Assembly: GCF_006345805.1 (NCBI RefSeq)
Contig: NC_042999.1
Coordinates: 124,930,001-124,994,000, forward strand
Direction of reading: 5' to 3'
Length of the DNA stretch: 64,000 nucleotides
Source of the DNA: Octopus sinensis
Lineage: Eukaryota
Position numbers and translations under genes: made by a program. The notes under the pieces are model-generated. The model was not told the DNA's origin. It was given only the letters and a program-made list of their open reading frames with translations, and did not search any database. Shown here one piece after another: positions 41,035-62,798 of this stretch (position 1 is the first letter of the stretch; each line of letters opens with the position of its first letter).

Positions 41035-41485
41035 TACACTCACTCACACTAAAAAAATACATATTTATTAAATTTATTTCCATTTATCTATTATCAGAAA
41101 GGTTAAGTTCTTAGAGTTATGTAATGAGATTTTAATACCTAGAATTGATCAGTTAAGATCAAATAAAGAGAAAAGTTGAATGAGGGAATGGAGAGAAAAA
41201 GAATAAAATATTATATAATGAAATAAATATAGTAGAATATATGGGAGCATATACTGGGTTATTATTATACTGTAACTTAATATGTTTGTAATTATTAATT
41301 ATTAACAAAATAAATAAGTAAATTAGAGATCATTTCATTATATGTAGGAATAGCGTATAACATTATATGAAGAAAAACACAGTATTTGTATTCATGATTG
41401 ATTTTTTTGTGCTAAGATAGATTGGATTAGAACTATTTAGTAGTTAAACCAAGTGTTGATATTTAAAGATAATTTAACAAATATG

Positions 41486-41660
41486 CTTCTGTGACCTCAT
41501 CAGTGGTCCTTTGCTTTCTTCTTTATTATTTGTGTGTCTTTCCTTACTAATGATCAGCCATTATGTAGTTTGATAATAAGAAATTAATAAGAAAGAGGAA
41601 AGCAAAGGACCACAGTTGAGGTCACAGAAGTGTGACGAAAGAACTCTGGCCGAAATACGA
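41486..41660. mobile_element. 175-bp inverted-repeat insertion with hammerhead-like motif and 12-bp TSD
   Basis: TTAACAAATATG flanks both sides; arms 41486-41524 and ~41592-41630; CTGATGA/GAAA core elements. Confidence 0.65.
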
Positions 41661-41850
41661 TTAACAAATATGAATTATAATATAATTTACTTTATTTTGT
41701 AAAAATAAGAAAGAAATAAGACAATTTATTGGTATGGAGATGTTATTTATATATATTATGAAAGAAACAAAGTTGAATATAACCATTTCTTATGAAAGAA
41801 ACAAAGTTGGAATATAACCATTTATATATATTATGCAGATGTTTGAAATA

Positions 41851-42048
41851 CAGTAATCCCTTACCATATTGCAGTTCACCTATTGCACACTCAGTACATC
41901 AGGGATTTTTCTGGCTAATACATGTAAATTTATATTACAGTATCCTCAGTATATCGTAGGTTTCTGTGACTGATAGGTATTTATACTTTTTTAGATTTTA
42001 ATTATTTCTGTAGGAGGTTATGGAACATAACACCTGCAATAGTCAAGG
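41851..42048. mobile_element. Tigger/pogo-like MITE remnant
   Basis: TA-CAGTAATCCCT terminus; right end degraded. Confidence 0.45.
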
Positions 42049-45000
42049 CAAGATATTCTTTTCTACTCTAAGCACAAGGCCCGAAATTTTTAGGGAAGGG
42101 TACTTAATTTATTGACCCCAAAAGGATAAAAGTCGACCTTGGCAGATATATATATATACATACATATATATCATCCTCAAACTCAGAACCATTAAGACAT
42201 ATGAGATAATATTCTGTTTTTACCTAACTTCAATGCCAGGCAACTAGGCTGATTGATACACATTGGCAAGGTTTATAGACAAGCTAGTTTGGTCACAGCT
42301 AAAGGCCTCTCAAAATATTGGGACTTTTTTCGTTCATTACAATTTTAGTATAATTATAAATTTAGTAATTATTTAACCTAAGTAACAACGGTTATCATTA
42401 ACAAATTATTAAATAAAAATGATTATTTTCAAGTCTTACCAACTATATAATATCAAGTGCTACTTGAATAATTTTATTACTGAAACAGAGTTTGATAGAA
42501 TACAATATTGAGAGTTGAATCAGGAGATATAGAGAAAATACAAAGAAAGTCAGAGGAATGGGCAAATAGAAGAAATAAGAATTAGGTATAAATGGAGGAG
42601 AAACAAGAATGACAAGAAGTATTAACCCAGAAGAAAAGGAATGAAAACTATGTTTCTAACTTCCTTCATAAAATGAGTGTAATAGTATGTCATATTAAGA
42701 GGGTTTTTCCAACTATCTATACACTGCTAATCACTAACTAAATTTCTTGGTGAAATGAATATCATAGTATATCATGGATACAGGTCTTACCAACTATATA
42801 ATACCAAGTGCCACTTGAATAATTTTATTACTGAAACACAGAGGAATGGCCAAATAGAAGAAATAAGAATTAGGTATAAATGGAGGAGAAACAAGAATGA
42901 CAAGAAGTATTAACCCAGAAGAAAAGGAATGAAATTTATGCAAGAAATGGAGCTAGAAGATATTGTATAACAAATGATGAGCTGAAGCTAAAACAGAAAG
43001 AATGAGAATTGTTCATCAAGACAGAAGTCAAAATATAAATGATGATGATGATGATAATAATAAGCAAGAATATTTTTCACAGGACAAAATGAGAAAATAA
43101 GCAAAGAGAATAAACAAGATTTTTAGAAATTAATGAAAGGATTATGAAGAAAATGACAGGATAATATTACCAAGTGGGGAGATGTTTATGGGTGACACCA
43201 CAAAATGGCCTGTGGAATTTCCACAGGTACTGCTGGTGTACATAATCCCACAGCACATTTTATTATTCCTATGAATAGTTTTTTTGTTTTTTTTTTCTGG
43301 CAATTGGCAACCTGACAAGCCAACAACTGGTAACCCAACATTCACGCAAATCTACATTTGGCAACTTTCAAGTCTCAACCAACCGCACTTCAGATTAAAG
43401 ATGTTTTTCTGATTAAACAGATTAATTTTTTTTTTTGATAGGAGAGAGAGAAAAATATAAAATATTTGCAGTCCTTACACTATCAGCCAGTGCATTGTTT
43501 GCAAACTCAACAATCTCTTAACTTTGTTCTACAATAATTACAATGCAGCAATTGCCAGTCATGAGGAATATTGACCAACTTAACAGTGACACATAGGATG
43601 TCTCAAGGACAGAAAATACAATAAATGTGGTATTACCAACTCGCTACAGAACTCAAGAAAAAAGATACACCAAGTCAGAATTATGGCAATAATTCATAGC
43701 ATATATAAACAGACTATATACCATTTTTATATACCAGTAATTCTCCTTAATAGGATAACTTTTTTGTTCTTTAACTTGCGACTAATCATTTCAACATTTT
43801 AACTGCTGTGAACAAATATTTTTCTAGATCACCACTCTATCTCTGACTTATTCTATTGGTCCCTTTTGCTGAGCCACTAAGTTTCAGGGATGTTAATACA
43901 CCAACATCGGTTGTCAAGCGATGGTGGGAGGACAAGCACAGACACACAAATACATACACACACACATAAATATATATATGAAGGGCTTCTTTCAGTTTCT
44001 GTCTACCAAATCCACTCACAAGGGTTTGGTCAGCCCAAGGCTATGGTAGAAGACATTTACCCAAGGTGCCATGCAGCCTGCACCTATCAACACAGCTTAA
44101 ATTTTAGAAACACAGAAACAACTACATATACATCCTCATACATGTAAACTTTGAGTTGATTGATCTTATAACAATCTACCATAATTCTATGTTAAATTTT
44201 GTCCCATTTAATGAGTGGTGACAGAAGGGACAATGAATAAGATTTACAGCATTTTTGATTTTGAGAAAAAATATATTTTTTACAAATGTTCACTGCCTTA
44301 CAAAAACTATACCAGCTAAGTAAATGACCTTCTCCAATTGCATTAAAAACATTATAACTTATTCAGAACTCTATTTCAGAAAATTATCTTCATTTTCTTC
44401 AAGCATACAAAAGACAAATTTAGGTGGGGCAAAATAAGTAAGACAAAATAAGATAATCTTGCCTCTTCAATTCTCCAGAATTACATTTGAAAAAAGACCC
44501 ACATACATCAATATCCATACCAGGATATCAGAAATGCAACAAAAATTTTAAATATCTAAGTCGAATTGAAAGTAGATCATGAAAAAGTGGCACATAATAT
44601 GAAATCACCAAAACTCAACATTAAATATTTTCTATAGCTTCTTCACGATCTGCTGGTGTGGCTCTCATCCCGATATATTTACACACCATGCAGTTAAAAA
44701 GAAATTATTGAAATTAGTCAGTACTCATTATTAGACATGATTTTTTGAAAATTGAACATTATCATTAGTGTGGGGAAAAAATTGAGTTGGAATCCAACAG
44801 AAAAAAGAATATGGATAGTTAAACACCAAAAATTATCCAGATATTTTATTAGCAACCACAATTACAATTGGATCAAATTTGAGGAAAAATTTCTGGAAAA
44901 AAAAGTCCCTGTCACCTGACTTATGTTTCAAACTCACTCAACTTCAACATCAACAACTATGCCGATCAACTTTTACTCCCTAAGAAGATGCAACAGTCCA

Positions 45001-45736
45001 AAATAATGATGCAATATTTGCAATGTAATGATTTCAAACACATAGGGAAAAAATGAGAAATCAGAAATTATTCATTTTCCTCCAGCTACCAATTTTGCCC
45101 CATCACCCATTCTTCAACAATGTGCTGTATAATTACTATTGTATTATTTTATCAACATGATTGGAAACGATCTATTTGCTATTTGTATGTATGAAATAAA
45201 AAGAAAAAAAATACAAGCTTGCTTCCAAACCACATGATTCCAGATTCAGACCCACTGAGTGACACCTTGGGCAAGTGATATCTACTATAACCTAAGGCCA
45301 ACCAAAGCCTTGTGAGTGGATTTGGTAGATGGAACCTGAAGGAAACCCATCGAATATTATATATATATACATTCGAGCGAGGTCGTTGCCAGTGCCGCTG
45401 GACTGGCTCCTGTGCAGGTGGCACATAAAAAACACCATTTGAGCATAGTTGTTGCCAGTACTGCCTGACTGGCCCTTGTGTCGGTGACACATAAAAGCAC
45501 CCACTACACTCTCGGAGTGGTTGGCGTTAGGAAGGGCATCCAGCTGTAGAAACTCTGCCAGATCAGATTAGAGCTTGGCGCAGCCATCTTGTTCACCAAT
45601 CCTCAGTCAAATCGTCCAACCCATGTTAGCATGGAAGGCGGACGTTAAACGATGATGATGATATGTATGTATGTACAGCCATCTAAGAATCCATAAATCA
45701 GGAAAAACTGCATTCGTATATTTGTCAGTAGAGTGG

Positions 45737-46757
45737 GTATATTAATCGAAGTATACAGAATTTATATATCCATTCTGACCAATCTTACCAATTAATTTAG
45801 TACTAGGGGTCCATCAGAGTTTTAGGTCCAATTATGTAACCCTGCGCTCTTCAGAAATGGCAGTTATAGAATGATATATGGCGACATATTTACTTCCATA
45901 ACTGCCATCTTGGATCTTTTCGGTTTGAACAGCAGTTTTTAAAAATAATTTCTATGTAACTAAAAAATTTTAAACTTCGTATACTGGTAGAATGTGTTTA
46001 TAAAACATCTTTTTCTCTTGGCTTTCTTGAGAAAATTCTATAGGTTGTAAGATATTTGGTCTTTAATTTCTTGCATTTCGGCAATTTCAACCAATCAATG
46101 ATGTCTATTGAGGTGAAAACGATTTCTGCCGTAACATTTTATGGCGGCGTCATATGAAAATGTCCGTTTTTTATGAGAAAAAAGATACCCTGTGGCCATA
46201 AACTGAGGGGTCACTCGTAAACAGAGCTGGATAACAAAACCGTTCCCTCTTTAGTGTCCACCCATAATTATGACCCTAGTATCGATCTATTGCATTTCAA
46301 TCTGTTTTAGGGTTAGGGGTTGGGTTAGGGTTAAGGTTAGGGATGGGGGGAAGGGTATCCTTTTTTCTTCAGAAATGTAAATAAACCCAATCTGTTTCTT
46401 AAACGAGGGACATTTTCATATTTCATCGCCAGAAAATTTTACGGCAGATAATGTTTTCACCTCAATAGACGTCATTGATTGGTTGACATTACCAAAATTG
46501 AAGAAAATATCTTACAAACTACAGAATTTTCTCAAGAAAGCCAAGAGAAAAAGATGTTTTATAAACACATTCTACCAGTATACGAAGTTACATAGAAATT
46601 ATTTTAAAAAACTGTCGTTCAAACCGAAAAGATCCGCCATCTTTGAAGAGCGCAGTTACATAGTCGGGCCTGGCTTTTTTTAACCTCTAGTGCGAAACTG
46701 ATCAATTAAGATCAACCATAATGGATATATAATATTGTACACTTCGATTAATATATG
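45737..46757. mobile_element. Foldback-like element with long inverted arms and internal TTAGGG tract
   Basis: ~45737-46146 is reverse-complementary (with indels) to ~46427-46757; telomere-like repeats at 46307-46342. Confidence 0.75.
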
Positions 46758-48114
46758 TGTGTGCGTGTGTGTGTCCCACCACAGCTTGACAACAGGTGTT
46801 GGTGTTTACATCCCCGTAACTCAGCGGTTCAGCAAAAAAACTGATAGAATAAGTACAAGGTTTTAAAAAGAATAATTAATAAGTACTAGTATCGATTGGA
46901 TCCACTAAGGATTCTTCAAGGCGGCGCCCCAGCATAGCCACAGTCTAATGACTGAAACAAGTAAAAGATAAACGATAATTTATCATCGTTATTATTCCGA
47001 CGAGCATTTTTTTTTTTTTTTTCATTTCCTTATCTAATTACATGCTACTTTGACAAAGTGAAAGTGGCTCGCTAAATCAAAGTTAATTCAAATCCAAGCG
47101 AATGCAACATAAAGTCAACCCCGTCATGATTTTTAACATGAGTAAAAAACAATTAAAATTAATAAAATTCGCGCTAAAATTTCGTCATTACAATAAATAG
47201 GCAGGTTCATTTCAGTCATACAAAATGCTTTGCTGTATTTCTTCAAGGTTTTTAAGTTCTGAGTTGAAACCTCGCCGAGGTTATCTTTGCCTTTCATCTT
47301 TCTGGGGATCAATAAAATGAAGTACAATCAAATACTGAGATTCATGTATTCCCTAACACCGAATTCCTGGTTGTGTGCCTATGTAAGAAGTTATTTATCG
47401 GCGAAGTGTTGGGCATTAGTAGAACAGTTAAGAGAGTCGAACAAAATGCCTTATGATATTTAGTTACGGCCCTTACGCCCCGAGTTCAACCAGAGGCGAG
47501 ATTACTCTTGCCTTTCAGCCTTCCAGGGTCGATAAAATAAAGTATCAGTCAATAACTAAAATCGAATTAATGGATTATATACACTCCGCCAAAATGTGTG
47601 ATCGTGAGCTAATGTTAGAAATTAAAATCACAAGGATGTAAAGAACTAAAACATGTTGCTTAAAACATACACTAACTCTAAACAAGGATTATTACAGCCT
47701 CTGATCCGTCCCTGTATTCAGTAAACTACAAAATCACACATTTTCAACAATTTAGTGTACCGTTTCCGTAATTTACTTGTACAAACAAAATTATGGGAAG
47801 CTTCAATTATTTATAAACGAAAAGAATAATAAATTGTGATGGTAGAAAACATCAACACAACATTTGTTACTAATTGCGCTGCCACCGTATAGCAACAAGA
47901 AACAAAACCAGTGTATACCGTAGAATAAATAAATGTTTTAAGGAAGAATTAGTCCGTAATGTACTTGCAAAGAACAAACAGGGCGGTCTGTGAAGGTGCC
48001 TTCACCAACAGTAGTAATAACAACCGGATTCATATAAAGAAGCGTGTTACATATTCGCAAATTCACTAAAACGTTTATAGAACAGGAAAAAAAGCAAACA
48101 ATCATAACACTTAC

Positions 48115-48235
48115 CGGATATTTAATAAAAAATACACAATTTTATGTAACTTCACATAATTATTGCACTAGAATGATGGCACTTTAAAGGTTAGTGTCAA
48201 CGAACACTGTTCACTCTCCAGACAACGGTAGAAAT
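48115..48235 (-). promoter_or_regulatory. Putative non-coding first exon / promoter of MIPEP
   Basis: Strong donor CCG|GTAAGT at 48115/48114 inside the zone (~46.7-50.7 kb) where CpGs look visibly retained; start site not determinable. Confidence 0.5.
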
Positions 48236-48269
48236 ATCCCTCCATTCATCCTCTCTTTCTTCTTCTTCT

Positions 48270-48445
48270 CTCTCTCTATTTATCTATTTGTCTGTATTTC
48301 ATTCACTCACTCAGTCTCTGTTTCTCTCTCTCTATTTATCTCTTTGTCTGTATTTCATTCACTCACTCAGTCTCTGTTTCTCTCTCTCTATTTATCTATT
48401 TGTCTGTATTTCATTCACTCACTCAATCTCTGTTTCTCTCTCTCT
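48270..48445. repeat. 56-bp pyrimidine-rich tandem repeat x3
   Basis: atttcattcactcactc recurs at 48296, 48352 and 48408. Confidence 0.85.
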
Positions 48446-48944
48446 CTCACTTTCTTGCAATGCTACCATCACTTGGAAAACACGTGTTTCTCCTGTAATG
48501 TTTACACAAATTTTTCCTTTGATATTACGTTCTCGCCATAAAACCCGAGTCGAGAATTTAGTCTTTTACTAGGCCTACAAGAAATAGCAGCCACATTTCC
48601 CTCAAATCATACCCTATAATTCTACATAATGCACTGTACCTTCGAAAAATAAAATGTGGTTACGAATGTAATACTTTTTGATCATAAATCTGTTTCATGA
48701 AGACTGTCTTCCAAACTGTATTAATATTTAAATTAATTCTTAAAATATACTATAAAACCATCAGTTTAATCGATCTAAATAGTCACAGGCGCCTTCGTTG
48801 GCTCATAAAGCATTATTTTACACATGTAAACAATGTTGGAATCGCCAAAAGTTGCCTATTCCAGAATAAAGTCTTTTACGTTTATAAATTATATTATCAG
48901 GCGGTAATTAACTCGGTTTAATTTATCTCGATTGGCACTTACAA

Positions 48945-49338
48945 AAGGCGGCGAACTGGCAGAATCGTTAGCACGCCGGGCGAAATGCCTAGCGGTATTT
49001 CGTCTGCCATTCCGTTCTGAGTTCAAATTCCGCCGAAGTCGACTTTGCCTTTCAAATTTTGGGGGTCGATAAATTAAGTACCAGTTACGCACTGGGGTCG
49101 ATATAATCGACTTAATACCTTTGTCTGTCCTTGTTTGTCCCCTCTATATTTAGCCCCTTGTGGGTAATAAAGATATAGGTATTTCGCCTGTCATGCTCTG
49201 ATTTCAAATTCCGCCGAGGTCAACTTTGCCTTTCATCCTTTCGGGGTCGATAAATCAAGTACCAGTTGCGTAATGAGGCGATCTAAGCGACTGGCTCCCT
49301 TCCCCAAAATTTCGAGCCTTGCGCCAAGAGTAGAAAAA
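48945..49338 (+). mobile_element. Nin/Deu-domain SINE, well preserved, with duplicated core
   Basis: GGCGGCGARCTGGCAGAATCGTTAG head; CCGAGGTCRACTTTGCCTTTCATCCTTTCGGGGTCGATAAA core present twice. Confidence 0.75.
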
Positions 49339-50240
49339 AAATAGGCACTTAAAAGTAAAATGTCTTATAAAATGATTTTTTTTTTTTCGGCTTTCTCATC
49401 GCTTCTTTTTTGTACCAGCGGTCAAGGTCATTCAATAAATATACATTTCACAAGGTTACCATGAATCATTATTTACTTGTTTTAGGCATTGGAGTACCGC
49501 CATGCTTGAGTACTGCTTTGAAGGGTTTTAGTCGAACGAATTGACTCCAAATTTTTAATCCTGGTACATGTTCACTGAATCTCTAGCTTACGGGGAGGTA
49601 AACAAACTTACACCGGTTGTCAAGGAGATGGGCACAGACATGTATGTATGTAAACGATGGGCTTCCTTCAGTTTCCGTCTACGAAATCCATCCCCTCACA
49701 AGGCTTTGGTCGGCCCGGGGCTATAGTAGAAGATATTTATCCAGTGAGTCATGCAGTGGAACTGAACCCGGAAACATGTGGTTGGGAAACTGCTTGTCAT
49801 GAAGGTACGAGGAAAGAGGTAGGGGAAGGGGAGTAACTATAAATACTGATTTTCAAGTAACATAAAAAAATGAAAATGAAAGAAGAAAAAAACTGAAGCA
49901 AATATTTTTGTTTTGTTTTTTTTTTAATCTTTGCTCTAATATCCATATCATCTCGATGAAGAATTGCTACAGTTGTTTGAACAATGTTTTAATCATAATA
50001 GAAAATTGATTTATCACCTTCTGAACTATTGTACATGATACAAGCTACAATTGGCTGTATTCACCAAACAGGTATAAGAGAAGGAGACACATTTCGTAGG
50101 ATTGGCCGAGGGTGATGTTTACTCTCGTGCAAGTACCATTCTTATGTTGTGTAGGTAATATTTCATAAGCTCTCCAGGGAATTTTGTCACTACCAAGATT
50201 AACTAAATTCTTTTAAAGTATATTTTATATGCGCACCCGG

Positions 50241-50248
50241 TGACGTCA
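50241..50248. promoter_or_regulatory. Full CRE palindrome TGACGTCA
   Basis: Exact motif next to GCGCAC and TATATA in CpG-retaining unique sequence; function unproven. Confidence 0.3.
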
Positions 50249-50900
50249 AATATATACCTATTGAACAGTTATGTTTTATTGTAAGTCTCTGAGTTTGTAA
50301 AGACGGTCAAGGACGTGCAATCTGTACACATTCAGCAGCATGACCAATGTTTTTTCCATATAGTGATTTACGTCTTTCAGGAGAATCAGACATCATAATA
50401 GGATGTATTTTCAGGTCTTTATGAACAAAAATGGATATATTCGGCAAAATTTTAATGTTACACTTAGTCAAATTACAAATGATCGGGAAAAGTGCTGGTG
50501 ATCTTAATACAGATAAAACAAAATAAATTATTTACAAGTTAAAAATATTTTAAACATGAGTGCCAGTTCTGTTTTACCACTCGTAAATCTTGCCAGCCGA
50601 ATAAACAACCGCAGGGAATCAATAATTAATAACGTATTCACAAATACGTTTTCCTCTAGAATACTTAATTCCAGTATTTCATTTCTTTCATTTATGTTCA
50701 CTATACTGAATGAGACTCGAGGGGATTTGTAGTAAATACGCTTATGGGATAATAAATGAAACTACACAAATAAAACTAAAGAAATATTTTGTAAACATTA
50801 AGGATATTTAAAAAGATATGAGTAGTCATCAAATTTGATATACAGTATTTCGTTTTGGGATTTGGTTTGCACGATTCTTTATTTGAGTTCGTGTGTTGAA

Positions 50901-50962
<62 letters not shown>

Positions 50963-51216
50963 CATAGTTTAACGTCCGCTTTCCATGCTAGCATCGGTTG
51001 GATGATTTGACTGAGGACTGGCGAACCAGATGGCTGCACCAGGCTACAGTCTAATCTGGCAGAGTTTCTACAGCTGGATGCCCTTCCTAATGCCAACCAC
51101 TCCGAGAGTGTAGTGGGTGCTTTTACATGCCCACTACACTCTCGGAGTGGCTGGCTTTAGGGAGGACATCCAGCTGTAGAAACACTACCAGATCAGACAG
51201 GAGCCTGGTGCAGTCA

Positions 51217-51261
<45 letters not shown>

Positions 51262-51964
51262 GTATTGCAAATGCATTAAAACTCTTTAGCATTCAGATTG
51301 CTCTTTTAAATGTAATGCTTATTCATTTGCCGTGTTTTGAATTGATCATGCATTATTTCAAAGCTTTGAGATTTCGATAATATGATCATTTATTTTTAAT
51401 ATGATATGGTAGAATAGGTGTTAGAGGCCAGATTAGGCTAGTTTGAACAGAAAACAAGTAGAATATTTTGGCAAGATACAGCAGGTTTAAATACTAATGG
51501 GCTAAACATCTAGAAAAGGCTAAAAGTTCATACTATGAATTATTTTACAGTTTCATTAATAATCTTTGGTTTTATCAATGTAGTTTTATTAGATGATGGC
51601 AGTTTCTTTGAGTCTGAAGATCAAGAGGGAGAGTAGCATACCTTCAAATGGTTATGTAAACCAATTCTTGACACTGCAGGGCTTTTCTTCCTCTCTGCAC
51701 TTAGTAGCTTTAAAGTGAGAATCAGTCTATACAATCCAATCTCACGCTTTAGACTTAGAGGTCTGACCACTCTGACTCAGTAGGCTAACACAGCTGCAGT
51801 GACCAGCAAGCAGTAGGTTTTACATTGAAGTGACCTTCTCCAAGATGAATTGCCTTACAGGGCTTAAGGGCTACATCTACCCTGATGTTGCCAGAAGGAT
51901 ATCAAAGAGAACACCAGACCATCTGAGGAAATTCATAGTCTCATTTAGTTTAGTTATATGCTGC

Positions 51965-52034
51965 TGTCTGGTGGATCAAATATATTCCCAATGTGGCTAA
52001 CACCACATTGGGAATATATTTGATCCATCAGACA
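51965..52034. repeat. 32-bp near-perfect hairpin with 6-nt loop
   Basis: tgtctggtggatcaaatatattcccaatgtgg-ctaaca-ccacattgggaatatatttgatccatcagaca. Confidence 0.9.
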
Positions 52035-52677
52035 AGCAAAAAATTTAGCTTTTATCTCAATAAAATAGAGGAAGTCATTCAAACATTGAAGACTGCAGCT
52101 ATTACCCTTGTCATTTGTTAAATGTAATGTAAATAAGCTTTCACTGACACCAGCATAGAATTAGAGATAGCAACTATAATCAAATTTAAAACAAAAGACA
52201 CTCCACAAATAGATGGTATAAATTGAAAAATAGCTATGGCTACAAAGGCCTGCATGAGGAATCTTCAAAGGCTGGAAAAGACTATCTTTAGGTCCTAGGA
52301 AGGGAACTCCCTATGAAATTGAGGATTTAATTGAGGACCTTAAATCTTGAATTAAGTTTTGCAATTAAGATAATGGTAAAGCATGAAATTTTTAAAGTTG
52401 TAGTTTTTCCTTCTTTGTTCATATTTTATCATAACCACATATTTTTCAAACAGTTTTTGTGTATGATTAATGAAAATGTAAATGAATGTGATAGCTAAAA
52501 TATCTATCAGAATATGAAATGATAAACTATTTTAATGTTTTATTCCTTGTGCACTAGAATGATCAGATAAACCGAATCAGTTAACAAATGAGCTGTTCTT
52601 GTTTCTTTGTTTTTCATTTTTTTTATCTGAAAAATTTCCGATAACCCTATCAAAATCAGTTTCTTTGTCAATATATA

Positions 52678-53096
52678 CTCTCTCTCTTTTGCTCTCTTTT
52701 ACTAGTTTCAGTCATTTGACTGCAGCCATGCTGGAGCACCGCCTTTTAATCGAGCAACTCGACCCCAGGACTTATTCTTTTGTAAGCCCAGTACTTATTC
52801 TATCAGTCTCTTTTGCCGAACCGCTAAGTAACGGGGACATAAACACACCAGCATCGGTTGTCAAGCAATGCTAGGGGACAAACACAGACACACAAACACA
52901 CACACGCATATATATATATATATACATATATACAACGGGCTTCTTTCAGTTTCTGTCTACCAAATCCACTCACAAGGCTTTGGTCGGCCCGAGGCTATAG
53001 TAGAAGACACTTGCCCAAGGTGCCACGCAGTGGGACTGAACCCGGAACCATGTGGTTGGTAAACAAGCTACTTACCACACAGCCACTCCTGCGCCT
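52678..53096 (-). mobile_element. tRNA-derived SINE, full length and young
   Basis: Reverse complement of the 17678 family with CpGs intact. Confidence 0.85.
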
Positions 53097-53129
53097 ATAT
53101 TATTCAATATTCAGTATAACTAGATCAAA

Positions 53130-53255
53130 ATGTCAGGTTTCAGGTATGGTAGACCTGAAGTAGTTGGGCTTCTAAAAGATTATTCTGATGATGCTACTGT
53201 AAATGAAATTGCCAACAATATTCTCAAACAAAAATATTTAGAAATGTTTCAGTTT
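53130..53255 (+). CDS. Candidate first coding exon of an unidentified + strand gene
   Basis: tcag acceptor at 53114, AAAATG start, MSGFRYGRPEVVGLLKDYSDDATVNEIANNILKQKYLEMFQF, GTAATG donor; no homologue recognised. Confidence 0.35.
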
Positions 53256-54578
53256 GTAATGGTCGGGTTCTCATTTTCTAAAATTTGCTTTATATATTCT
53301 TGATGCATTTCTGTTGGAAAATTTTTGTTATTAAAGACAGTAGGATTTATTGTATTAACTTCCACTTTCATTTAACATTCTTCTAGTTTACTTTCAGGTA
53401 TTGTGAGGTATTTTCACAAGAAGCCAAAATTTTCAGCAAACTACTTAAGAGCATTAAAATACAGAGTTAATCCTACAATATCATTATACAAAGCATAAAA
53501 CACAGATTTTCTGACATAAGATGAAACATTAATACTCAAACCAAGCACTTTGAGTTCTTTATTCTAAGTAGCCTAAAAATATTTCTAATATCTCACAGCG
53601 ATAAAATACAAATCACATAAACAGAAAAGAAACATACACACAGTGTATGTTTTGCAATTATGTACAGTTGCTTCATAAATATACTAGGCTTACATACAAA
53701 GTTTATTGCAATATATATATAAGACAAGGAAGAAAATGGAGAAGATAATCAATTGATAAACATCAGCTAGAGTGAATATAACTCTACTCTTACAGCTGTT
53801 TCTACTTTGGGGGTCCATCATGCCAAAACTGTACAAAGACTGTACCAAAGACTGTATAAAAATTGAACAAATATATATGTCTATGTGTCTGTATGTGTGT
53901 GTGTGTGCATATGTATATATATATGTGGAGTATAAAAAAAGAGATTAGCTGGTTATTTCTCAGGGATTGCTTAAGTGATGTAGACACCTCTGATGAGAAA
54001 CCAATAGGGTTCAAAAACCAATTGAAGCTGTTCATCCCTTTTTTCAGTATATACTATTTTACTTGTTTCAGTCATTTGACTGCGGCCATGCTGGAGCACC
54101 GCTTTAAGTCGAGCAACTCGACCCTGGGACTTATTCTTTTGTAAGCCCAGTACTTATTCTATCAGTCTCTTTTGCCGAACCGCTATTATATATATAATAA
54201 CAAATTAATAAATAAAACATATGCATATATACATACATATATGTACATACCTACATCTATATGTATATATATGGGTACAGGACACCAAAACAACGTCGAA
54301 CACAATGAGAAACAAAAACATAAACACAAAACCAAGGAAATGGACATTTTTTTTAAACAACGAAAAAATAGAGTACAAGACATACAACAAGGAAAATTCC
54401 CCTTCTTCAGTCACCTCTGTTTCATCTATTCCGCGTTTCGAAGGTAAAGGCAAGACACGACTTCATTGAAACAGTCCTTCCCACAAAAGCAGATAAAATT
54501 AAATTTGCGATTTTTTTGCGGAGGGGTAAAAATGGTAACAAAAACAGGACAGTAAAGACAGTACAAAATATAAACAGC

Positions 54579-54609
<31 letters not shown>

Positions 54610-54822
54610 TACATAAAAGAAAAATTATTAGTTAGAGGTTATGCAACCGTCTAGGGGATACATGTATCCATGGCCATTACTGATGTATTACCTATGTATA
54701 GTCCTTGCTGTAAGGTTAACAGTAGTTGGTAATTTAAAGGGTAAACCATGGTTTAATATACTCAGATAAGATAAGCAAAGAAATGGAGCAACATGCAACA
54801 ATTATAAGTTGATCATTAGTAT

Positions 54823-54907
54823 AACATTTACAGCTGTTTCAGTTTGTTATTTTTGAGGTAAACTTGCGTTTATCTTGTTCCATGTAACAAACATTATCAG
54901 AATGATT
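54823..54907 (-). ncRNA. Type I hammerhead ribozyme motif (G8A variant)
   Basis: CATT-CTGATAA-[T GTTTGTTA...TAACAAAC T]-GAAA-CAGCTG-TA-AATG. Confidence 0.6.
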
Positions 54908-55131
54908 TAAACTTTACCAGAGGAATATTGACAGGAGATTGAAGGTTGACTGGAGGGAAAAGGAAAAAAGAAAAGGAAACGAAAAATAAGAAAAAAGGAA
55001 AAAAATTATAAATTGAAACAGCTGTAAATGTTATCTTAACCATAATTAAACTATGATCATTCACTACTAAAGATCAACTTCTAATTGTTACATGTTGCTC
55101 CATTTCTTTCCTTCTCTCTCTCTCTCTCTCA

Positions 55132-55165
<34 letters not shown>

Positions 55166-55169
<4 letters not shown>

Positions 55170-56809
55170 ACCTCATCTCGTCCTCCCGTCTCCCCCGCAC
55201 CGCATCCAACCTAATTGTGCGAACCCCACGTACCCCCACCATTTACTTCCTCCCCAAAATCCACAAACCCAACAACCCTGGCCGCCCCATCGTCTCCGCC
55301 TGTAACTGCCCCACGGAGCTCATCTCTAAATACCTCGACCGTGTCCTTGCCCCCCTAGTGGCATCTCTTCCCTCCCACATCCACGATACCAACCATGCTC
55401 TCCGGCTTTTCAACTCTTTCTCCTTTCCTCCCGGCTCCTCCAAAATCCTTTTTACTATGGACATCCAAAGCCTCTATACTGTTATCCCTCACCACGAAGG
55501 ACTGCAGGCCCTTCGACACTTTCTTGACCTCCGCTCTAACCCTGTACCTGACACCTCCACACTCATTCGTCTGGCCGAACTTGTCCTTACTCTGAACTGC
55601 TTCTCGTTCGCGGGCGAGTTCTACCATCAGGTCTCGGGAGTGGCCATGGGAACGCGAATGGGCCCCAACTATGCGAACCTGTTCGTTGGCTATGTTGAGG
55701 CCCAAATATTCTCTAATTTCACTGGTCCCACTCCTGAACTATATGGTCGTTATATTGACGACATTATCGGTGCCACCTCACTCTCCCGCGAACATCTAGA
55801 TTCCTTCCTCTCTTTCGTCCAATCTTTCCATCCAGCCCTCCACTTCACTTCCACTATCTCCAACACCTCTGTCTCCTTCCTCGACATTTCGATTAGCATT
55901 CTTCACTCCACTCTTACCACCTCCATTCACTACAAACACACAGACTCACACTCATACCTCAACTTCTCTTCCTCCCACCCAGAACACACCAAGCTTTCCA
56001 TCCCCTATTCCCAATTCCTCCGTCTACGTAGGCTCTGTAGTGACGACCATGACTTTGAGACTCAGTCTCAACGTATGGCTCACCACTTCACCCTACGTGG
56101 ATACCCCCTCACCACTATCCACACCGCCCTTGCCAGAGCACGGTCCGTGGACCGTGTATCTGCTCTCTCTCCCCGAACCCGCCCTGTAGTCTCCCGCCTC
56201 CCTTTTCCCCTCACTTACCACCCCACGACCCTACGTCTCCAACGCACCATTCTTCGAGCGTTCCGTCATCTCCAGTCCGACCCGTCCACTTCACACCTCT
56301 TCCCTAACCGACCCCTCCCCTCTTTCAAACGAGCCCACAACCTTCGAGACCTTTTGGTCCATAGCTCCTTCCCTGACCCTACCTCCAAACCCGGCTCGTT
56401 CCCCTGCTCCCGCCCACGTTGCCGCACTTGCCCTTACCTCTCCAACACCACCCGCCTCACTAGCACCCACCATCGACCCTATCCCATCATCCACTCCTTC
56501 ACCTGCACCTCCAGCAATATTATCTATTGCATCTCTTGCTCTCTCTGCAATTCCTTGTACATCGGACAAACGGGACGCCGCTTGGCTGACCAGTTCGCGG
56601 AACACCTTCGTGACATCCACCTTGCGAACGACACACCGGTCTCACGCCATTTCCGCTCCACCGGTCACTCCTTGCAACACCTATCTGTGTTCGGTTTGTC
56701 CTTACACAGAGGCCATCCGGATTCCCGTTTGCGCCGTGAACAGGAATTAATCTTCTCTCTTCGCTCTTATACGCCATTTGGTCTCAACTCTCCCCCCCTC
56801 CTCATCTAA
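55166..56809 (+). mobile_element. Penelope-like element ORF (RT + GIY-YIG endonuclease), 5'-truncated
   Basis: LPKIHKP..PGRPIVS, GVAMGTRMGP, RYIDD, CSRPRCRTC linker, IIYCISC...YIGQTGR and PFGLN motifs; ~548 codons without a stop. Confidence 0.93.
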
Positions 56810-57120
56810 CCCCCCTCTCCCCCCTCCTCACCTATCCTTTCTCCCCCCGACCCCTACTTCTTCAGTCCTTCATCCTTTCACCCCTACACCCCTACTCCCT
56901 TTCCCTTCTTCCCTCTTTCTCCCTCCCTCTTCCCCTTCCCTCTGCTCCCTCACTCCCTCTCTCCCCTTCTCTCTCCCCCTCTCCCTCTTTCCTCCTTCAT
57001 CCCCCTCCTCCCCTTCCTTCTCCCCCATCCTCTCCTCTTCCCCCTTCTCCTCCCCCTCTTCTCCCCCTTCTCTCCCCCTCCCCCTCTTCTCCCCCTCCCC
57101 CTCTTCTCCCCCTCCCCTCT
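56810..57120 (+). repeat. C/T-rich low-complexity tract (PLE 3' UTR-like)
   Basis: Pyrimidine-dominated (CCCT/CTT) sequence directly after the PLE stop. Confidence 0.8.
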
Positions 57121-58630
57121 TCGTAATGTCCCTAAATCTCTGTCCATTTGCAGGATCTTTAAGCTTCCAGATCCTTCTTCTCCATATTTGTCGTCTTCTG
57201 GTTGTCCTCCTAGTCCTGATCCTAAAGTCACTAACTACCAGTCTATGTTGTGGGGTACATTCTTCACCTGTGAAGGTTTTGGCATTTATAGCAGCCATCT
57301 CTCCCTTTGCCTTGTAAGGATGTAGTCAATTTGGCTGGTATGTTGGCCCGATTGGTAAGTGACTAGGTGGCTGGTAGGTTTCCTGAAGTTAGTGTTGCAA
57401 ATCATAAGATTATTTGCATCGCAGAACTCCAGCAGCCTGGTTCCCTCCTCGTTGCGGGAGCCATAGCCATAGCCTCCATGTACGCCATGGAAGCCCCCAG
57501 CATGTCGTCCAACGTGACCATTGAAGTCACCAGCCACAAAGATAAGGTCTCTGTCGTTCGTCAATGAGGTAGTCTGCAGTAGAGTGTCATAAAATCGGTC
57601 TTTCTGTCCATCGGGTAGCCCCGACTGAGGAGCATAGGCTGATATAATGGTTGCTAAACTATGATGAAGCACTAATCTAATCTTAAGTATTCTGTCACTT
57701 ACTCTGATTACCTCAATTACTTTATCTACCCATTTCTCATCGATAAGTATACCCACGCCACCAACCCCATCAGTGTTCCCTGCCCAGAAAATCTTGTACC
57801 TGCGTTCCTTGCCTGTGAGGAACCTAGCTGATCCTCCTCTCCACCTTATTTCTTGCATGCAACATATATCCACACATCTCCGTTCAAGCATCTCGACTAT
57901 CTCACCAGACCTACCTTTCAGAGTGCCAACGTTGAGGGTGCCAACCCTGAGGGTGTGGAAGGCATGGGCTCTAGAGACCCTGGGACGGTGGACAGTAGCT
58001 TCGTGTACCTGAAAAGAAAGCTCGCATTTGGCAGAATTCATGTGCAAGAAATGAAGTAGTAAAGTAGCCTTCAGTACAACCTGCATAACGCTAGCCTTTC
58101 ATATTTTGCACTGTATGAACATTACCTTACATAGGTCGAGACTAGGGGTAGGGAGGGGTAGGGATGGTGAGAGCATTTGCAGTCTTCATGGGAAGCAACC
58201 CCGGGATGGAAGAGAATAGGAACTTCCGGCATGCGTGGTGGGGGTGGGAGGGCGGGTGCACCGTAGCTGAGTAAAGAGGTTCTGTTAATCGTGAGCTAAC
58301 AAATGGGTTTGTATGAATCGGGAGACAATACTAAACGAAAAATTGAAAAATTGAAAAATTGAAAAATTGAAAAATCAGAGTGGCTATGAACCTGGAGACA
58401 AGTCTAAACGAAAAAAAAAATGTTTGAGCTAGACAGGGTAATGAGGGAATACTGAAAGAATGAGGGACAATACAATGAGATGGAAATTGAAGAATAGAGA
58501 AAGAATAAGGATAAGTGCAAGAAAGACGGTAGTCGTAGCGAGGTTGGACGATTCACTTAACTTTTAGCCATTCATGATTTGTGCGTATTCTTTAGATATT
58601 TTGAAGCGAGTGGGGTTAACGATAAATGCG
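57121..58630 (-). mobile_element. RTE LINE 5' part: 5' UTR and AP-endonuclease domain, frameshifted and 3'-truncated
   Basis: VGTLNVGTL, DICCMQEIRWRG, SAYAPQ, GDFNGHVG, SQIDYIL motifs; frameshift near 57295, then ECTPQHRLVV. Confidence 0.9.
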
Positions 58631-58636
58631 ATCGCT

Positions 58637-58674
<38 letters not shown>

Positions 58675-59345
58675 ATCATCATCATTGTTTAATTTCTGCT
58701 TTCCATGCTGGCATGGGTTACATTGTTTAAAATGAAGCTGGCAAACTGGGAGTTGTTGAGACTGCAACTGTCTGTTGTGGCATGGTTTCTATAGCTGGAT
58801 GCCCTTCCTAATGCCACCCACTTAACAGAGTATAGGTGCTTTTTACATGCTACCAGCATGGGTGCATTTATGCAGCACCAGCTCAGGTGCATTAATGCAC
58901 CACCAGTATGGGTGTGTTTATGTAGTACCAGCATGGGTGCATTTACAGAGCACCAGCACATTTGCTTTTTATGTGACACACCTGTGTGTGCGGAAGACGG
59001 CGATTTTACTTAGCTTGACATGTCTTATCAAGTACAGCGAATTGTCACATGTCCCAGTCTGCTGTCATTTTCTCAGTGATGCCCAGCGTCTGAAGATCCT
59101 TTTTTATCACTTTGTCTCATGTTTTCCTGAGTCTATCTCTTCCACTGGTACCCTCCAAAATTAGAGCTGTCCTTGGCCATATACATAACATGACCGTACC
59201 AGCACAGCCTTCTCTCTTGTACACAACATCTGATGCCTCTTATACCCAGTTTTCCTCTTAAATCATTTACACTCTGTCATGCATCCACCCTGACATTACC
59301 CATCTAGCAGAGCATGCTAGCTTCATTTCTTTCAAGCCACCTCCT
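58675..59345 (-). mobile_element. Old RTE LINE 3' fragment
   Basis: RRLCWYGHVM motif, 3' UTR motifs and (GAT)n tail. Confidence 0.7.
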
Positions 59346-59788
59346 AGATATATGTATATATATTGTATAATATTATATTATATATAGGTAGCATTATCAC
59401 CAACAACATCATTTTAACATCTTCTATTCTATGCATGTATGGGTCAGAAGGAATTTGCTGTGGCAGATTTTTCTGACTGGATGCCCTTCCTATTTCCAAC
59501 CCTCACCTGTTTGCAAGCAGATAATATTTTCCCTTAGTTAGACATATTTTTCACAGAAGACCAGAAACAAACAGCCTTGCTTGTATGATGATGATGATGA
59601 TGTTCATTTACAATTATCATGTGATGTTTACACAAGGGTACATGCACACACACACACACACTCGTATACATGCATACATATATGTATGTTTGTTTGTATG
59701 CATGTTTATATGTATGTATGTATAGCATTATGCATCTCATACTTGAAATAGATTCACCTACTTCTAAGTATGAGATACAATGTGTATG

Positions 59789-59864
<76 letters not shown>

Positions 59865-60249
59865 AAGGGTTAAATCACTAATCACTACATCAACTTAATT
59901 TCCTATAGATGCACTGTACCTTAAACAAAGACAAGATGATCACAGCTTTAATGTCATTGTTTATGGGTCCGCTGGTGTACGTTTGACCTAATTCTAAGCA
60001 ATAACAGCAACAACAACAACAACAACAGTAACCAGTTCATTGATTTGTACACTTGTATATCCAGTGTACAAATAACCAGTTCATATAAGCTAGGCTTGTT
60101 GCTTATTAATTTGTTTCTTCACTTTTTATTGTAGCTTTTTTTGCTGATATTATTTGATCTGTTGAGAAACCTGATTCTTTCAAGTCTCAACACTGTTCTA
60201 GGACATTTCCTGCACTTACTGACATGCACTCTTATATATATAATATATA

Positions 60250-61137
60250 CAGGGTGCGGTGAATAAACTGTCGGCTAAATTACGCAAAAATGAAAATAAC
60301 ACTGACATCTCATTTTAACAGATATATTTACCAAAATTACATCAACATTTCTTGAAATACTAAAGAGTAAATTTATTCAATAAAATCACCGCTGGCTTCA
60401 CCCACGGCATCCACACGACTTTGGAATCTGCTGCAACTTTTCTGGACGGTCTACTTGTATAAGTTGGTGAATGCTGCCGTAATTCTTGCCTTCAGTTCAT
60501 CTTTGGTGTTATAAGGAGTTTTGTTGGTCTCTCGCTCAACTGTGCCTCATACATAATAGTCAAGGAGGTTGCAGTCCGGGGAGTTAGGTGGCCAGATGTT
60601 AGGGGTGATGTGGTTGCAGTAATTGTCTGACAGCCATGACTGAGTTCTCCTGTTTGTGTGGCATGGTGCAGAGTCCTGTTGCCAGACATAGGTCTTCCAG
60701 CAGCCACCCTTTTGACCCAGGGCAGCACTACTGCCTCCAGGCACTTGATGTAGGCTTCCATGTTGAGTCTGAGGCCATGTGGAAAGATGAATGGAGGCAT
60801 AACGTCGCCATCACTAGTGATCACTCCAGACACCATAATGTTAGCTGGCTGTTTGATTTTTATCACTCTCAGTACATGTTTTGGGGACACAGCAAACACT
60901 CAGATTGACACCCAAACACTCTGAAATGTTTGTATTAGAGGGTTCTGGCATGAATGCCAAACTACAGCATGTCGTTTCCAAATTTCTGGCGGAGTGAATT
61001 GCATCATGGTGCTGTTTTTCTCACAGACAGTGCCCAACTAGCCCTACTATACTGTGTAGGTGACAAAATTAAAAACAAACAATGTGCATATGCAAAATTA
61101 AAAATATAAAATGATGACAATTTACTATCACACCCTG
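60250..61137 (-). mobile_element. maT (DD37D) Tc1/mariner-superfamily transposon, internally deleted
   Basis: TA-CAGGGTG termini; WQQDSAPCH...WPPNSPDCNLLDY with 37 residues between the two Asp. Confidence 0.85.
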
Positions 61138-61938
61138 TATATCATCATCATCATTTACCATCTGTTTTCCATGCTGGCATGGGTTGGACAGTTTGACAGG
61201 AGCTGGAGAGCTGCACCAGGTTCAGATTATTTGTTTTGGCATGGTTTCTATGGCTGGATGCCCTTCCTAATACCAACCACTTCACAGTTTGTACTCAATG
61301 CTTTTCATGTGACACCAGCACAGGTACTTTTAACATGGCACCAGCACTAGTGGGGATTACCAAGTAGCTTGCAAGATGAAGACCTCACAGCTGAAAGAGT
61401 GAATGGAACTGAAAGAAGCGGCTGCATGCCAGGCAAGAGGTTAGAGCATAATAGAGGAAAGAGGGATGGAGATAGTTGTCTTACTATAGAGAAGATACTT
61501 GGCTGGGAGGGGAATAAACATCTACTCTCTCACTTCACTTCTATAATACATATACATATATATATATTTACAGGAAATTAACTATATGGCCAGTCATAGA
61601 TTGAACAATAGTTTTGCATCCATAAAGCACTTAGTTCTACAGACGATTTGTTGAACTCCAGTGCCCTCAGCCATGCCCAATTAATTCAAATTAATTGGGC
61701 ATGGAAATGGCCGTAGGTTCTATAAGTTTGATATTGTTCGAAATTGAATTTGTTTCAATAATTTAATGTCTGCACATCAATTTCTGCATTTTCTTTTTCT
61801 TATACATAAATGGTAAAATACTCATATCCATCAATGTAAAGCTAACGTCTTTTAGTATCTCACTGATACACTGGATAAAACCGGGCAACTTGGATGCTGA
61901 TGTCCCTTTAAGAGGTATTTATATCCTTGAAATAATTA

Positions 61939-61987
<49 letters not shown>

Positions 61988-62298
61988 TTCCAATATATAT
62001 ATATATACATATATATATATATTGGAAATTAGTAAGGAATTTCTCAAAGTGTTTACTTGTTTGCTCACAGTTAGGTATTCAAAATAGGTTATTCAATGGT
62101 TAGTATATAAATCCAGTAATAATTCCTATATGATAAGAATTTAGAGATATACTCTGCTGGATTATTCTAAATATATTATCTTTAACCAAATAGGTTTCCT
62201 GGAGTGTTTAATATTAATTATGATAATTATAAGGATTATTACAAAGTAGCATTAGCATTACCTTTAATTAATTTTTACATATAAATACAACCTTAAAT

Positions 62299-62384
62299 AG
62301 ACCTACATATGTTTCTACTGTGTTTGTTTGTAACCGTTGGATTTGCAACCTTACTATAATACCAATGCAATTTCTTCAGGGTCT
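62299..62384 (-). ncRNA. Type I hammerhead ribozyme motif
   Basis: AGACC-CTGAAGA-(~57 nt)-GAAA-CATATG-TA-GGTCT: perfect stem I, intact core, palindromic stem III, GUA triplet. Confidence 0.7.
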
Positions 62385-62653
62385 TCACTTTAATATTCTT
62401 TGAGATTTAGCTGGTTAAATTTTATGTTGATTTTCTTTGCATTCAATGATGTGGAGTTGTACATTAATTTAAACATGAACTATCTTCAATTTCAAGTATT
62501 GACTAGATAATCACTTGTTTATTCCTTATAGTCAGTTATTTAAAAAAATTTCATTGTTTAAATATTTATGAGTCATTAATATAGAGCAAAGGTAAATTTT
62601 CTCACTTGCAAGCATCTTAAAGCTTGTTCCTGTCACAAAGAGTATTAAAGTGA

Positions 62654-62739
62654 AGACCCTGAAGAAACAGAACCAGTATTATAGTAAGGTTGCAATTGGA
62701 ATGGTTACTAACCGATGCACTAGAAACAAATGTAGATCT
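62654..62739 (+). ncRNA. Type I hammerhead ribozyme motif (inverted partner)
   Basis: AGACC-CTGAAGA-(~57 nt)-GAAA-CAAATG-TA-GATCT. Confidence 0.6.
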
Positions 62740-62798
62740 ATTTGATCCTGTAATTATATATGTATAAATTTATAAATGTGTATGTATGTATATGTATA

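What the first reader, a model, noticed from the sequence alone, without database searches (positions are those of the whole stretch)
41474..62757. Recurrent divergent hammerhead pairs: candidate ribozyme-processed non-autonomous elements mobilised by Penelope-like retroelements
Seen: three loci with different sequences (41486-41660, 54775-55110, 62281-62757) share one architecture. Each is an inverted repeat with a hammerhead motif (complete or partial) on the - strand at left and on the + strand at right. Stem III is short and palindromic (ACAGCTGT, ACATATGT), stem II is unusually long, and its closing pair is non-canonical at two loci. A PLE RT/GIY-YIG ORF lies in the same window. Established: Penelope-like elements carry type I hammerheads with short palindromic stem III, thought to cleave as dimers, and often have inverted terminal segments. 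Inference: several families of long-stem-II hammerhead elements exist in this genome and move in trans. I do not know whether they are already described.
Basis: partly seen in the sequence, partly recalled or inferred. Interest (0 to 1): 0.75.

Follow-up and report, generated by a model that had tools for sequence, protein, structure and literature searches.

The report
Back-to-back tails of Penelope retrotransposons
The three hammerhead pairs are the cut-off, back-to-back tail ends of three protein-coding jumping-gene families of a known kind (Penelope-like), not separate non-coding elements; two of the families carry a predicted self-cutting RNA with an unusually long arm, a form found thousands of times in this animal genome but untested for cutting.

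Summary
The three divergent hammerhead pairs are real, but only one of six arms keeps a complete, intact core (62299-62384, minus strand). Each locus belongs to a different multi-copy family, and each family leads upstream into a Penelope-like RT/GIY-YIG ORF. Loci 2 and 3 are Hydra-clade by endonuclease motifs; locus 1 is Nematis-like, with a short 6-bp stem II. Junctions differ from copy to copy, and one arm ends at a long, the other at a short fixed 3' site. These are therefore 5'-truncated, inverted insertions of autonomous families, a described Penelope architecture, not elements moving as non-autonomous units. The ORF in the window is a Neptune-like family unrelated to all three. What is new relative to the papers read is the 50-85-nt structured stem II: an exact pattern hits 8,392 places against 2 for the reversed control, and it also occurs in a young family with an open 960-aa frame. 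Cleavage is untested. This scan reported the long-stem Hydra hammerhead before on other DNA of this genome. A real retrozyme-like element (~350-nt head-to-tail unit, short stem II) lies outside the finding at 15014-15420.

The parts
41474..41485 (.). 12-bp direct repeat, left copy (likely target-site duplication of locus 1)
   Evidence: Read directly; identical to 41661-41672
41486..41570 (-). Locus 1 left arm: 3' UTR fragment of a Nematis-like PLE (family F1); first core strand CUGAUGA at 41503-41497, ends 17 nt past the core start, no GAAA
   Evidence: 82-86% to the 3' UTR of ORF-bearing copies
41586..41660 (+). Locus 1 right arm: same family; mutated core strand 41613-41619, 6-bp stem II 41621-41636, GAAA 41637-41640, predicted site UC 41645-41646; ends 51 nt past the core start
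   Evidence: 86-91%
41661..41672 (.). 12-bp direct repeat, right copy; its first bases match the family's continuation (possible priming microhomology)
54620..55002 (-). Locus 2 long arm: 3' UTR/pseudo-LTR of a Hydra-clade PLE (family F2), reaching the long 3' end next to (TA)n
54825..54904 (-). Type I hammerhead of F2 with G8A change, 53-nt stem II region, ACAGCUGU stem III
55000..55117 (+). Locus 2 short arm: 3' half of the F2 hammerhead and sequence up to the short 3' end, then (TC)n(TA)n
55166..56809 (+). 5'-truncated Neptune-like PLE ORF (RT, CX4CxxC linker, CCHH GIY-YIG); independent, very young insertion into the same microsatellite; not the parent of loci 1-3
62210..62634 (-). Locus 3 long arm: last ~18 ORF codons (62634-62580), 3' UTR and pseudo-LTR of a second Hydra-clade PLE (family F3); left boundary approximate
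62299..62384 (-). Complete type I hammerhead of F3 with intact core and 57-nt stem II region
62633..62760 (+). Locus 3 short arm: inverted copy with a decayed hammerhead (62655-62738), ending at the short 3' end in TA-rich DNA
15014..15420 (.). Outside the finding: fourth divergent pair (minus arm 15014-15347, plus arm 15342-15419) of a non-coding ~350-nt head-to-tail repeat (family F4) with an intact short hammerhead at 15062-15106 (minus); retrozyme-like

Best explanation
Each locus is one insertion of a protein-coding Penelope-like retrotransposon, reduced to two 5'-truncated copies of its hammerhead-bearing 3' end joined back to back, and was likely made by the element's own enzyme priming reverse transcription on both strands of the cut target. 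Shown: family membership, the upstream ORFs, clade motifs, variable junctions and two fixed 3' ends. Inferred: the RT/GIY-YIG protein cuts both strands in TA-rich DNA, starts one cDNA at the outer and one at the inner initiation site, both stop early, and the two are joined, leaving 3' ends pointing outwards. The hammerhead would cut the element's tandem transcript, likely only as a dimer through the palindromic stem III; the long stem II of the two Hydra families likely is folded bulk that the core tolerates. The window's copies are decayed and likely inactive, except possibly 62299-62384.
For: ORF links: a Hydra endonuclease query hits 20 of 30 F3 loci and 7 of 30 F2 loci (one place counted twice in each); locus 3 itself holds the last ORF codons; L121 runs without a break from endonuclease through ~750 nt of 3' UTR to the F2 hammerhead. 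Locus-1 sequence lies 430-575 nt behind the ORF in 9 of 9 distinct ORF-selected places (one is the query's source), and L285 and L288 hold 882-aa and 708-aa frames between two divergent copies of it; at least 150 places match that ORF at 92% or more. Geometry: 13 of 13 distinct F2 pairs and 11 of 11 F1 pairs picked by the 3' part have one long and one short arm, each with a different pair of 5' break points. Among the first 100 of 8,392 pattern hits, all 18 neighbours closer than 5 kb are divergent, 168-4187 bp apart. Published: inverted 5'-truncated copies and a one-sided tail (PMC8557442); both strands cut and extended, two internal start sites that define the tail (PMC11167929); opposite-strand pairs (PMC4209133); Hydra hammerheads with U.U at the stem II base and 3-4-bp stem III (PMC8557442 File S2).
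Against: No intact full-length F2 or F3 copy was seen (longest open frames near the F2 endonuclease 307 and 382 aa), so their own autonomy is inferred from decayed ORFs. In the palindrome-selected F1 set, 5' ends cluster at -45/-46 and -57 to -65 and several copies share nearly the same pair; 7 of 30 loci picked by the 3' part also start at -44 to -69, which could reflect a short template. Locus 1 itself is atypical: both arms stop well short of the family's ends. Within families the core is barely or not better conserved than its flanks (F2 0.943 vs 0.912, F3 0.910 vs 0.879, F1 0.928 vs 0.950). The window copies of the long motifs fold no better than shuffles (z 0.8, 0.1, -0.1). In the Anolis element hammerhead cleavage was not needed for insertion in vitro (PMC11167929). 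Pfam gave no match for the 960-aa frame and only sub-threshold RT or GIY-YIG matches for three others; clade calls rest on motifs compared by eye.
Confidence: 0.88

Rival explanations
1. The loci are non-autonomous hammerhead elements (retrozymes or SINE-like units) copied in trans by a Penelope enzyme such as the ORF in the window.
For: Most copies are short and non-coding. A subset of F1 copies starts in a narrow zone 45-65 nt before the core. Such elements exist here: F4 wraps head-to-tail in 26 of 30 loci with a ~350-nt period and has no endonuclease match in 30 of 30. Non-autonomous PLE derivatives are published (bioRxiv 10.64898/2026.07.22.740005; PMC8557442).
Against: All three families are collinear with an ORF; 5' ends form a ladder up to more than 1 kb; no same-strand neighbours under 5 kb among the first 100 long-stem hits; locus-2 sequence is absent from 11 of 11 other loci of the window ORF's family.
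Confidence: 0.08
2. The palindromes are fold-back or MITE-like units amplified as a whole by a DNA transposase, the hammerhead being a passenger.
For: The top hits to locus 1 are nearly all palindromes of similar size; insertions sit in TA repeats.
Against: That set was selected by a palindromic query. Junctions differ, arms are unequal with two alternative ends, and arm length runs up to a whole ORF.
Confidence: 0.02
3. The long-stem motifs are not ribozymes: the core sequence is a relic or serves only as a protein-binding signal.
For: No excess conservation of the core inside families; young F1 copies often carry CUGAUGC (32 of 70) and F4 mostly CCGAUGA; PLE hammerheads cleave weakly (PMC4209133).
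Against: Across unrelated families the core and palindromic stem III stay fixed while stem I changes in register (UUUC/GAAA, GCGG/CCGC, CAUU/AAUG, GACC/GGUC); 16 of 30 pattern loci have 3 or more Watson-Crick stem I pairs against 0.64 expected, and 18 of 30 spacers fold at z<=-2 (these 30 include related copies). One compensated pair in F3 stem II (U-A 9, C-G 9 of 30). This rival concerns function and is compatible with the best explanation's anatomy.
Confidence: 0.2

Closest known systems
Hydra-clade Penelope-like elements and their hammerheads, including Hydra-1_Obim (Craig et al. 2021, PMC8557442; seen: abstract, passages, File S1, File S2, search hits in Files S4/S7 and Figs S2/S7)
   Same: C-terminal GIY-YIG without CCHH, CxCX5C linker, CxxC and CxH motifs, DKT and RW[K/R] in the RT of the young relative L161, insertion in (TA)n, inverted 5'-truncated copy, type I hammerhead near the 3' end with unpaired nucleotides at the stem II base and 3-4-bp stem III.
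   Different: All Hydra hammerheads listed in File S2 have a 3-7-bp stem II with a 3-10-nt loop; F2, F3 and L161 have 53, 57 and 85 nt. The F2 tail is about 125 nt against the 30-40 bp given. These are different families from Hydra-1_Obim.
Minimal PLE hammerheads and opposite-strand pairs (Cervera and De la Pena 2014, PMC4209133; seen: text parts 1-3 of 4, not the supplement)
   Same: [quoted passage not shown] F1 fits this class directly.
   Different: Stem II there is 6-8 bp; nothing of 50-85 nt is described in the text read. F1's loop 3 is not palindromic.
Nematis-clade PLEs (alignment rows in PMC8557442 Fig. S2)
   Same: F1's ORF has a CX4CxxC finger with a short spacer before the CCHH GIY-YIG, as in the Nematis rows.
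   Different: Assigned by eye from the linker only; no tree with reference sequences.
PAc (Poseidon) of Anolis carolinensis (Frangieh et al. 2024, PMC11167929; seen: passages)
   Same: Two internal RT start sites and extension of both target strands would give the long-arm/short-arm pairs seen here.
   Different: Different clade; the two-armed product was not among the passages read, and tail lengths here are longer.
Metazoan non-LTR retrozymes (PMC7229834, passages; bioRxiv 10.64898/2026.07.22.740005, text parts 1-3 of 5, supplements closed)
   Same: Non-coding, type I hammerhead, PLE-related. F4 at 15014-15420 fits.
   Different: Loci 1-3 are not head-to-tail monomers and are collinear with ORFs.

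Membership tests
EN+ Penelope-like element (F1, F2, F3) | Single ORF with RT and C-terminal GIY-YIG upstream of the terminal repeat | tested here: met
   F1: 882-aa frame with YVDD and GIY-YIG (RVT_1 E 0.002 sub-threshold). F2, F3: endonuclease and RT C-terminus collinear (GIY-YIG E 0.003 sub-threshold); full RT not recovered for these two.
EN+ Penelope-like element (F1, F2, F3) | 5'-truncated copies with an inverted 5'-truncated partner and a tail at one end only | tested here: met
   13 of 13 F2 pairs, 11 of 11 and 18 of 23 F1 pairs; F3 pairs
Hydra clade (F2, F3, L161 family) | CxCX5C linker, no CCHH, CxxC and CxH around the conserved E and N | tested here: met
   F2 and L161 read directly; F3 shows CxxC, CxH and no CCHH, linker only in a frame-shifted majority sequence
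Hydra clade (F2, F3, L161 family) | DKT and RWK motifs in the RT | tested here: inconclusive
   Present in L161 (SDKT, RWR), whose endonuclease is 54% identical to F2's; RT N-terminus of F2 and F3 not recovered
Hydra clade (F2, F3, L161 family) | Monophyly with reference Hydra RTs | not tested
   Reference sequences were only read in the supplement and compared by eye
Type I hammerhead ribozyme | CUGANGA, GAAA, NUH with stems I-III in type I order | tested here: met
   Family majority of F2, F3, F1 and window copy 62299-62384; all 10 core positions at the family majority in 19 of 39 F2 and 12 of 30 F3 copies
Type I hammerhead ribozyme | G10.1-C11.1 closing pair of stem II | tested here: not met
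   F2 has U.U and F3 A.A next to the core; U.U is common in published Hydra motifs; 15 of 30 pattern loci and L161 do have G-C
Type I hammerhead ribozyme | Site-specific self-cleavage | not testable with these tools
   Needs in vitro assay or raw RNA reads
Non-LTR retrozyme (loci 1-3) | Non-coding head-to-tail monomers, each with a hammerhead | tested here: not met
   Families are collinear with ORFs
Non-LTR retrozyme (F4, 15014-15420) | Non-coding head-to-tail monomers, each with a hammerhead | tested here: met
   26 of 30 loci wrap, period mostly 345-357 nt; 0 of 30 match four endonuclease queries
Non-LTR retrozyme (F4, 15014-15420) | Expression as linear and circular monomer RNA | not tested
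   No RNA data laid on it

The most novel reading that the evidence does not exclude
The 50-85-nt stem II of Hydra-clade hammerheads in this genome is a selected module, not bulk: two element RNAs pair through the palindromic stem III, the long arms bind the element's own RT/endonuclease dimer, and the paired RNAs are delivered to the two ends of one target break. That would explain why insertions are back-to-back with exactly one long and one short arm, and would give PLE hammerheads a role in integration rather than only in cleavage.
Probability: 0.12. Interest if true: 0.7.

Novelty: new variant of a known kind. Interest (0 to 1): 0.3.

Why it matters
The main claim reduces to known Penelope biology. 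The useful residue is practical and testable. Thousands of hammerheads in this genome have a stem II far outside the sizes listed for Hydra elements, and Rfam misses those in the window, so ribozyme counts from standard descriptors are likely low. A young family with identical copies and an open 960-aa frame offers an unmutated long-stem ribozyme and its enzyme for testing what PLE hammerheads do, which the papers read call unclear. The strict one-long, one-short arm rule is a genomic record that fits two-strand priming shown in vitro for another clade.

Tried and rejected
Rfam scan of the window: no hammerhead family at E<=1. Link of loci 1-3 to the window ORF: rejected. First guess that F2 and F3 were Naiad: rejected, since Naiad has an N-terminal endonuclease with CCHH. 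Apparent fixed 5' end of F1: largely an effect of the palindromic query; copies picked by the 3' part extend into the ORF. Long-stem reading of locus 1 using the second GAAA: rejected, no stem I partner; the short fold is the predicted minimum. RNAalifold in the script returned no structure for F2 or F3 stem II, so covariation rests on pair counts only. RNA evidence: no RNA holder listed, and no reads were laid, so expression and cleavage ends remain open. No hammerhead was found behind the window ORF family with a short-spacer pattern in 10 of 11 loci (flanks short, not conclusive). A scrambled (type SGC) reading of F1 was considered after reading passages of PMC10085705 but not tested. Lunse et al. 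2017 on PLE hammerhead dimers is not held and may describe long stem II variants; the supplements of PMC4209133 and of the 2026 preprint were not seen and may bear on novelty. Paper searches that found no description of a 50-85-nt stem II in PLE hammerheads: (0 papers). Three script or query slips were corrected and rerun.
Full report
Observation. The three inverted repeats are at the stated places. A type I hammerhead descriptor with a palindromic stem III found 62299-62384 (minus, perfect core, 57-nt stem II region), 54825-54904 (minus, one core change, 53 nt) and an unreported short motif at 15062-15106; 20 shuffles gave no perfect-core hit and at most 2 one-mismatch hits. Only one of the six arms in the finding has a complete intact core. 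Locus 1 does not share the long stem: its family has an extra G, a 6-bp stem II, a 4-nt loop and a non-palindromic stem III. Rfam reported no hammerhead.

Setting. The window is G000:C3:124930001-124994000 in a 2.7-Gb animal genome, likely an octopus (inference from similarity to Hydra-1_Obim and from earlier notes of this scan). Each locus is a repeat family: 313, 406 and 1519 first-look candidates, 40 scored in each search.

Locus 3 (family F3). Other copies match the first 365 bases of the locus as one strand and go on upstream where the window copy turns round. The shared upstream sequence translates as a GIY-YIG endonuclease ending in CxxC and CxH motifs. A Hydra-type endonuclease query hits 20 of 30 loci, and the window copy retains the last codons, QEQALRCLQVRKFTFALY then stop.

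Locus 2 (family F2). L121 runs from an endonuclease with a CxCX5C linker and no CCHH through about 750 nt of 3' UTR to the hammerhead; 7 of 30 loci selected by the short window sequence reach the endonuclease. These are the features given for the Hydra clade (PMC8557442). File S2 of that paper shows Hydra hammerheads with unpaired nucleotides, often U.U, at the base of stem II and 3-4-bp stems III, so the non-canonical closing pair is a clade trait; but every Hydra stem II listed is 3-7 bp with a 3-10-nt loop.

Locus 1 (family F1). With a palindromic query the family looked like a short unit with a fixed start. Selecting copies by the 3' part removed most of that: 5' ends spread from -16 to beyond -1300, and several copies reach an ORF. 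That ORF has at least 150 relatives at 92% or more. Locus-1 sequence lies 430-575 nt behind it in 9 of 9 distinct places, and two places hold 882-aa and 708-aa frames between divergent copies of the same sequence, that is, the same architecture with the whole gene inside. The linker resembles the Nematis rows of Fig. S2 (by eye). The window copy is odd: both arms stop early (+17 and +51 against +160 and +210-240) and a 12-bp direct repeat flanks it.

The window ORF. 55085-56809 is an RT with a weak GIY-YIG match, close by eye to Neptune1_Ap, with many 97-99% identical copies. Its endonuclease is about 26% identical to those of F1 and F2, and F2 sequence is absent beside 11 of 11 other copies. 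It abuts locus 2 most likely because both target (TA)n.

Geometry. In 13 of 13 distinct F2 pairs one arm reaches +250 or more and the other stops by +165; in 11 of 11 F1 pairs picked by the 3' part the ends are 159-171 and 210 or more; in the palindrome-selected set 18 of 23 follow the rule, the window copy being one of five exceptions. Every F2 pair and every 3'-selected F1 pair has its own 5' break points. This matches the described inverted 5'-truncated copy and one-sided tail (PMC8557442) and the two internal start sites and two-strand extension shown for the Anolis element (PMC11167929). Opposite-strand hammerhead pairs 100-700 bp apart were noted in 2014 as probable truncated PLEs (PMC4209133).

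The long stem II. An exact pattern with a 40-70-nt spacer matches 4161 + 4231 places against 0 + 2 for the reversed control. Among the first 100 listed, all 18 neighbours within 5 kb are divergent. In the 30 fetched loci, which include related copies, 16 have three or more Watson-Crick pairs in stem I (0.64 expected) and 18 spacers fold at z<=-2; 15 close stem II with G-C. Some lead upstream to Hydra-type endonuclease (L218, L225, L229/L230); the rest were not linked either way. Majority stem II sequences of F2 and F3 fold at z -3.1 and -5.6. A young family with copies 99-100% identical and an open 960-aa frame carries an 85-nt stem II in its terminal repeat (z -4.75). Against function: within families the core is hardly better conserved than flanks, as expected for copies decaying after insertion but giving no positive support; the window copies fold no better than shuffles; cleavage and expression were not tested.

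A real non-autonomous candidate. F4 at 15014-15420 is a fourth divergent pair. Its sequence wraps head-to-tail in 26 of 30 loci with a period near 350 nt and matches no endonuclease or PLE protein tried. It fits the metazoan non-LTR retrozymes (PMC7229834; bioRxiv 10.64898/2026.07.22.740005), has a short stem II, and lies outside the finding.

Prior notes. After forming this reading I consulted earlier notes of the scan. Several report long-stem Hydra hammerheads on other DNA of this genome; they agree but are not independent evidence. One claims a non-coding long-stem family, which I did not test. Two led me to PMC11167929 and PMC10085705.

Verdict. Observation partly confirmed; interpretation partly supported. 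The loci are ordinary truncated, inverted Penelope insertions of three autonomous families. The long-stem-II hammerhead is a new variant of a known kind as far as the searches named reach, with Lunse et al. 2017 unseen. Interest 0.3.

Noticed in passing
window 15014-15420: Fourth divergent hammerhead pair; non-coding ~350-nt head-to-tail repeat with about 1000 first-look candidates; family majority core is CCGAUGA (U4 to C). Retrozyme-like.
   Followed up: partly
L161:1171-1274 and L161:1749-4628 (G000:C26:1190500-1198500): Young full-length Hydra-type element with an open 960-aa frame, long Asn-rich insertions, and an 85-nt stem II hammerhead; many copies 99-100% identical.
   Followed up: partly
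F1 copies, e.g. L177-L206: The younger F1 subfamily often has CUGAUGC in place of CUGAUGA (32 of 70 aligned copies) yet has amplified recently.
   Followed up: no
window 55166-56809: Very young Neptune-like family (copies 97-99% identical, frames up to about 1000 aa elsewhere); 3' end is C/T-rich and interrupted at about 57120 by an opposite-strand LINE with an AP endonuclease (57286-58098).
   Followed up: partly
window 45900-46680: Long inverted repeat (arms 46064-46176 and 46397-46509, extending outwards) without a hammerhead hit; looks like a non-autonomous DNA transposon.
   Followed up: no
window 51965-52034: Near-perfect 70-nt hairpin; sub-threshold miRNA-model match only.
   Followed up: no
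window, many places (e.g. 19203-19378, 21892-21982, 27445-27645): Abundant dispersed SINE-like repeat starting with (ATC)n, with internal 62-nt tandem units at 22035-22413.
   Followed up: no
L178/L179 (G000:C17:56714090-56717914): F1 partial tandem: ORF end followed by two head-to-tail 3' repeats 592 bp apart, the pseudo-LTR arrangement.
   Followed up: no
L125 (G000:C3:21685000-21693000, minus strand): Intronless 692-aa open frame that reads like a Toll-like receptor (leucine-rich repeats, membrane segment, TIR-like end; recalled resemblance) beside an F3 copy.
   Followed up: no
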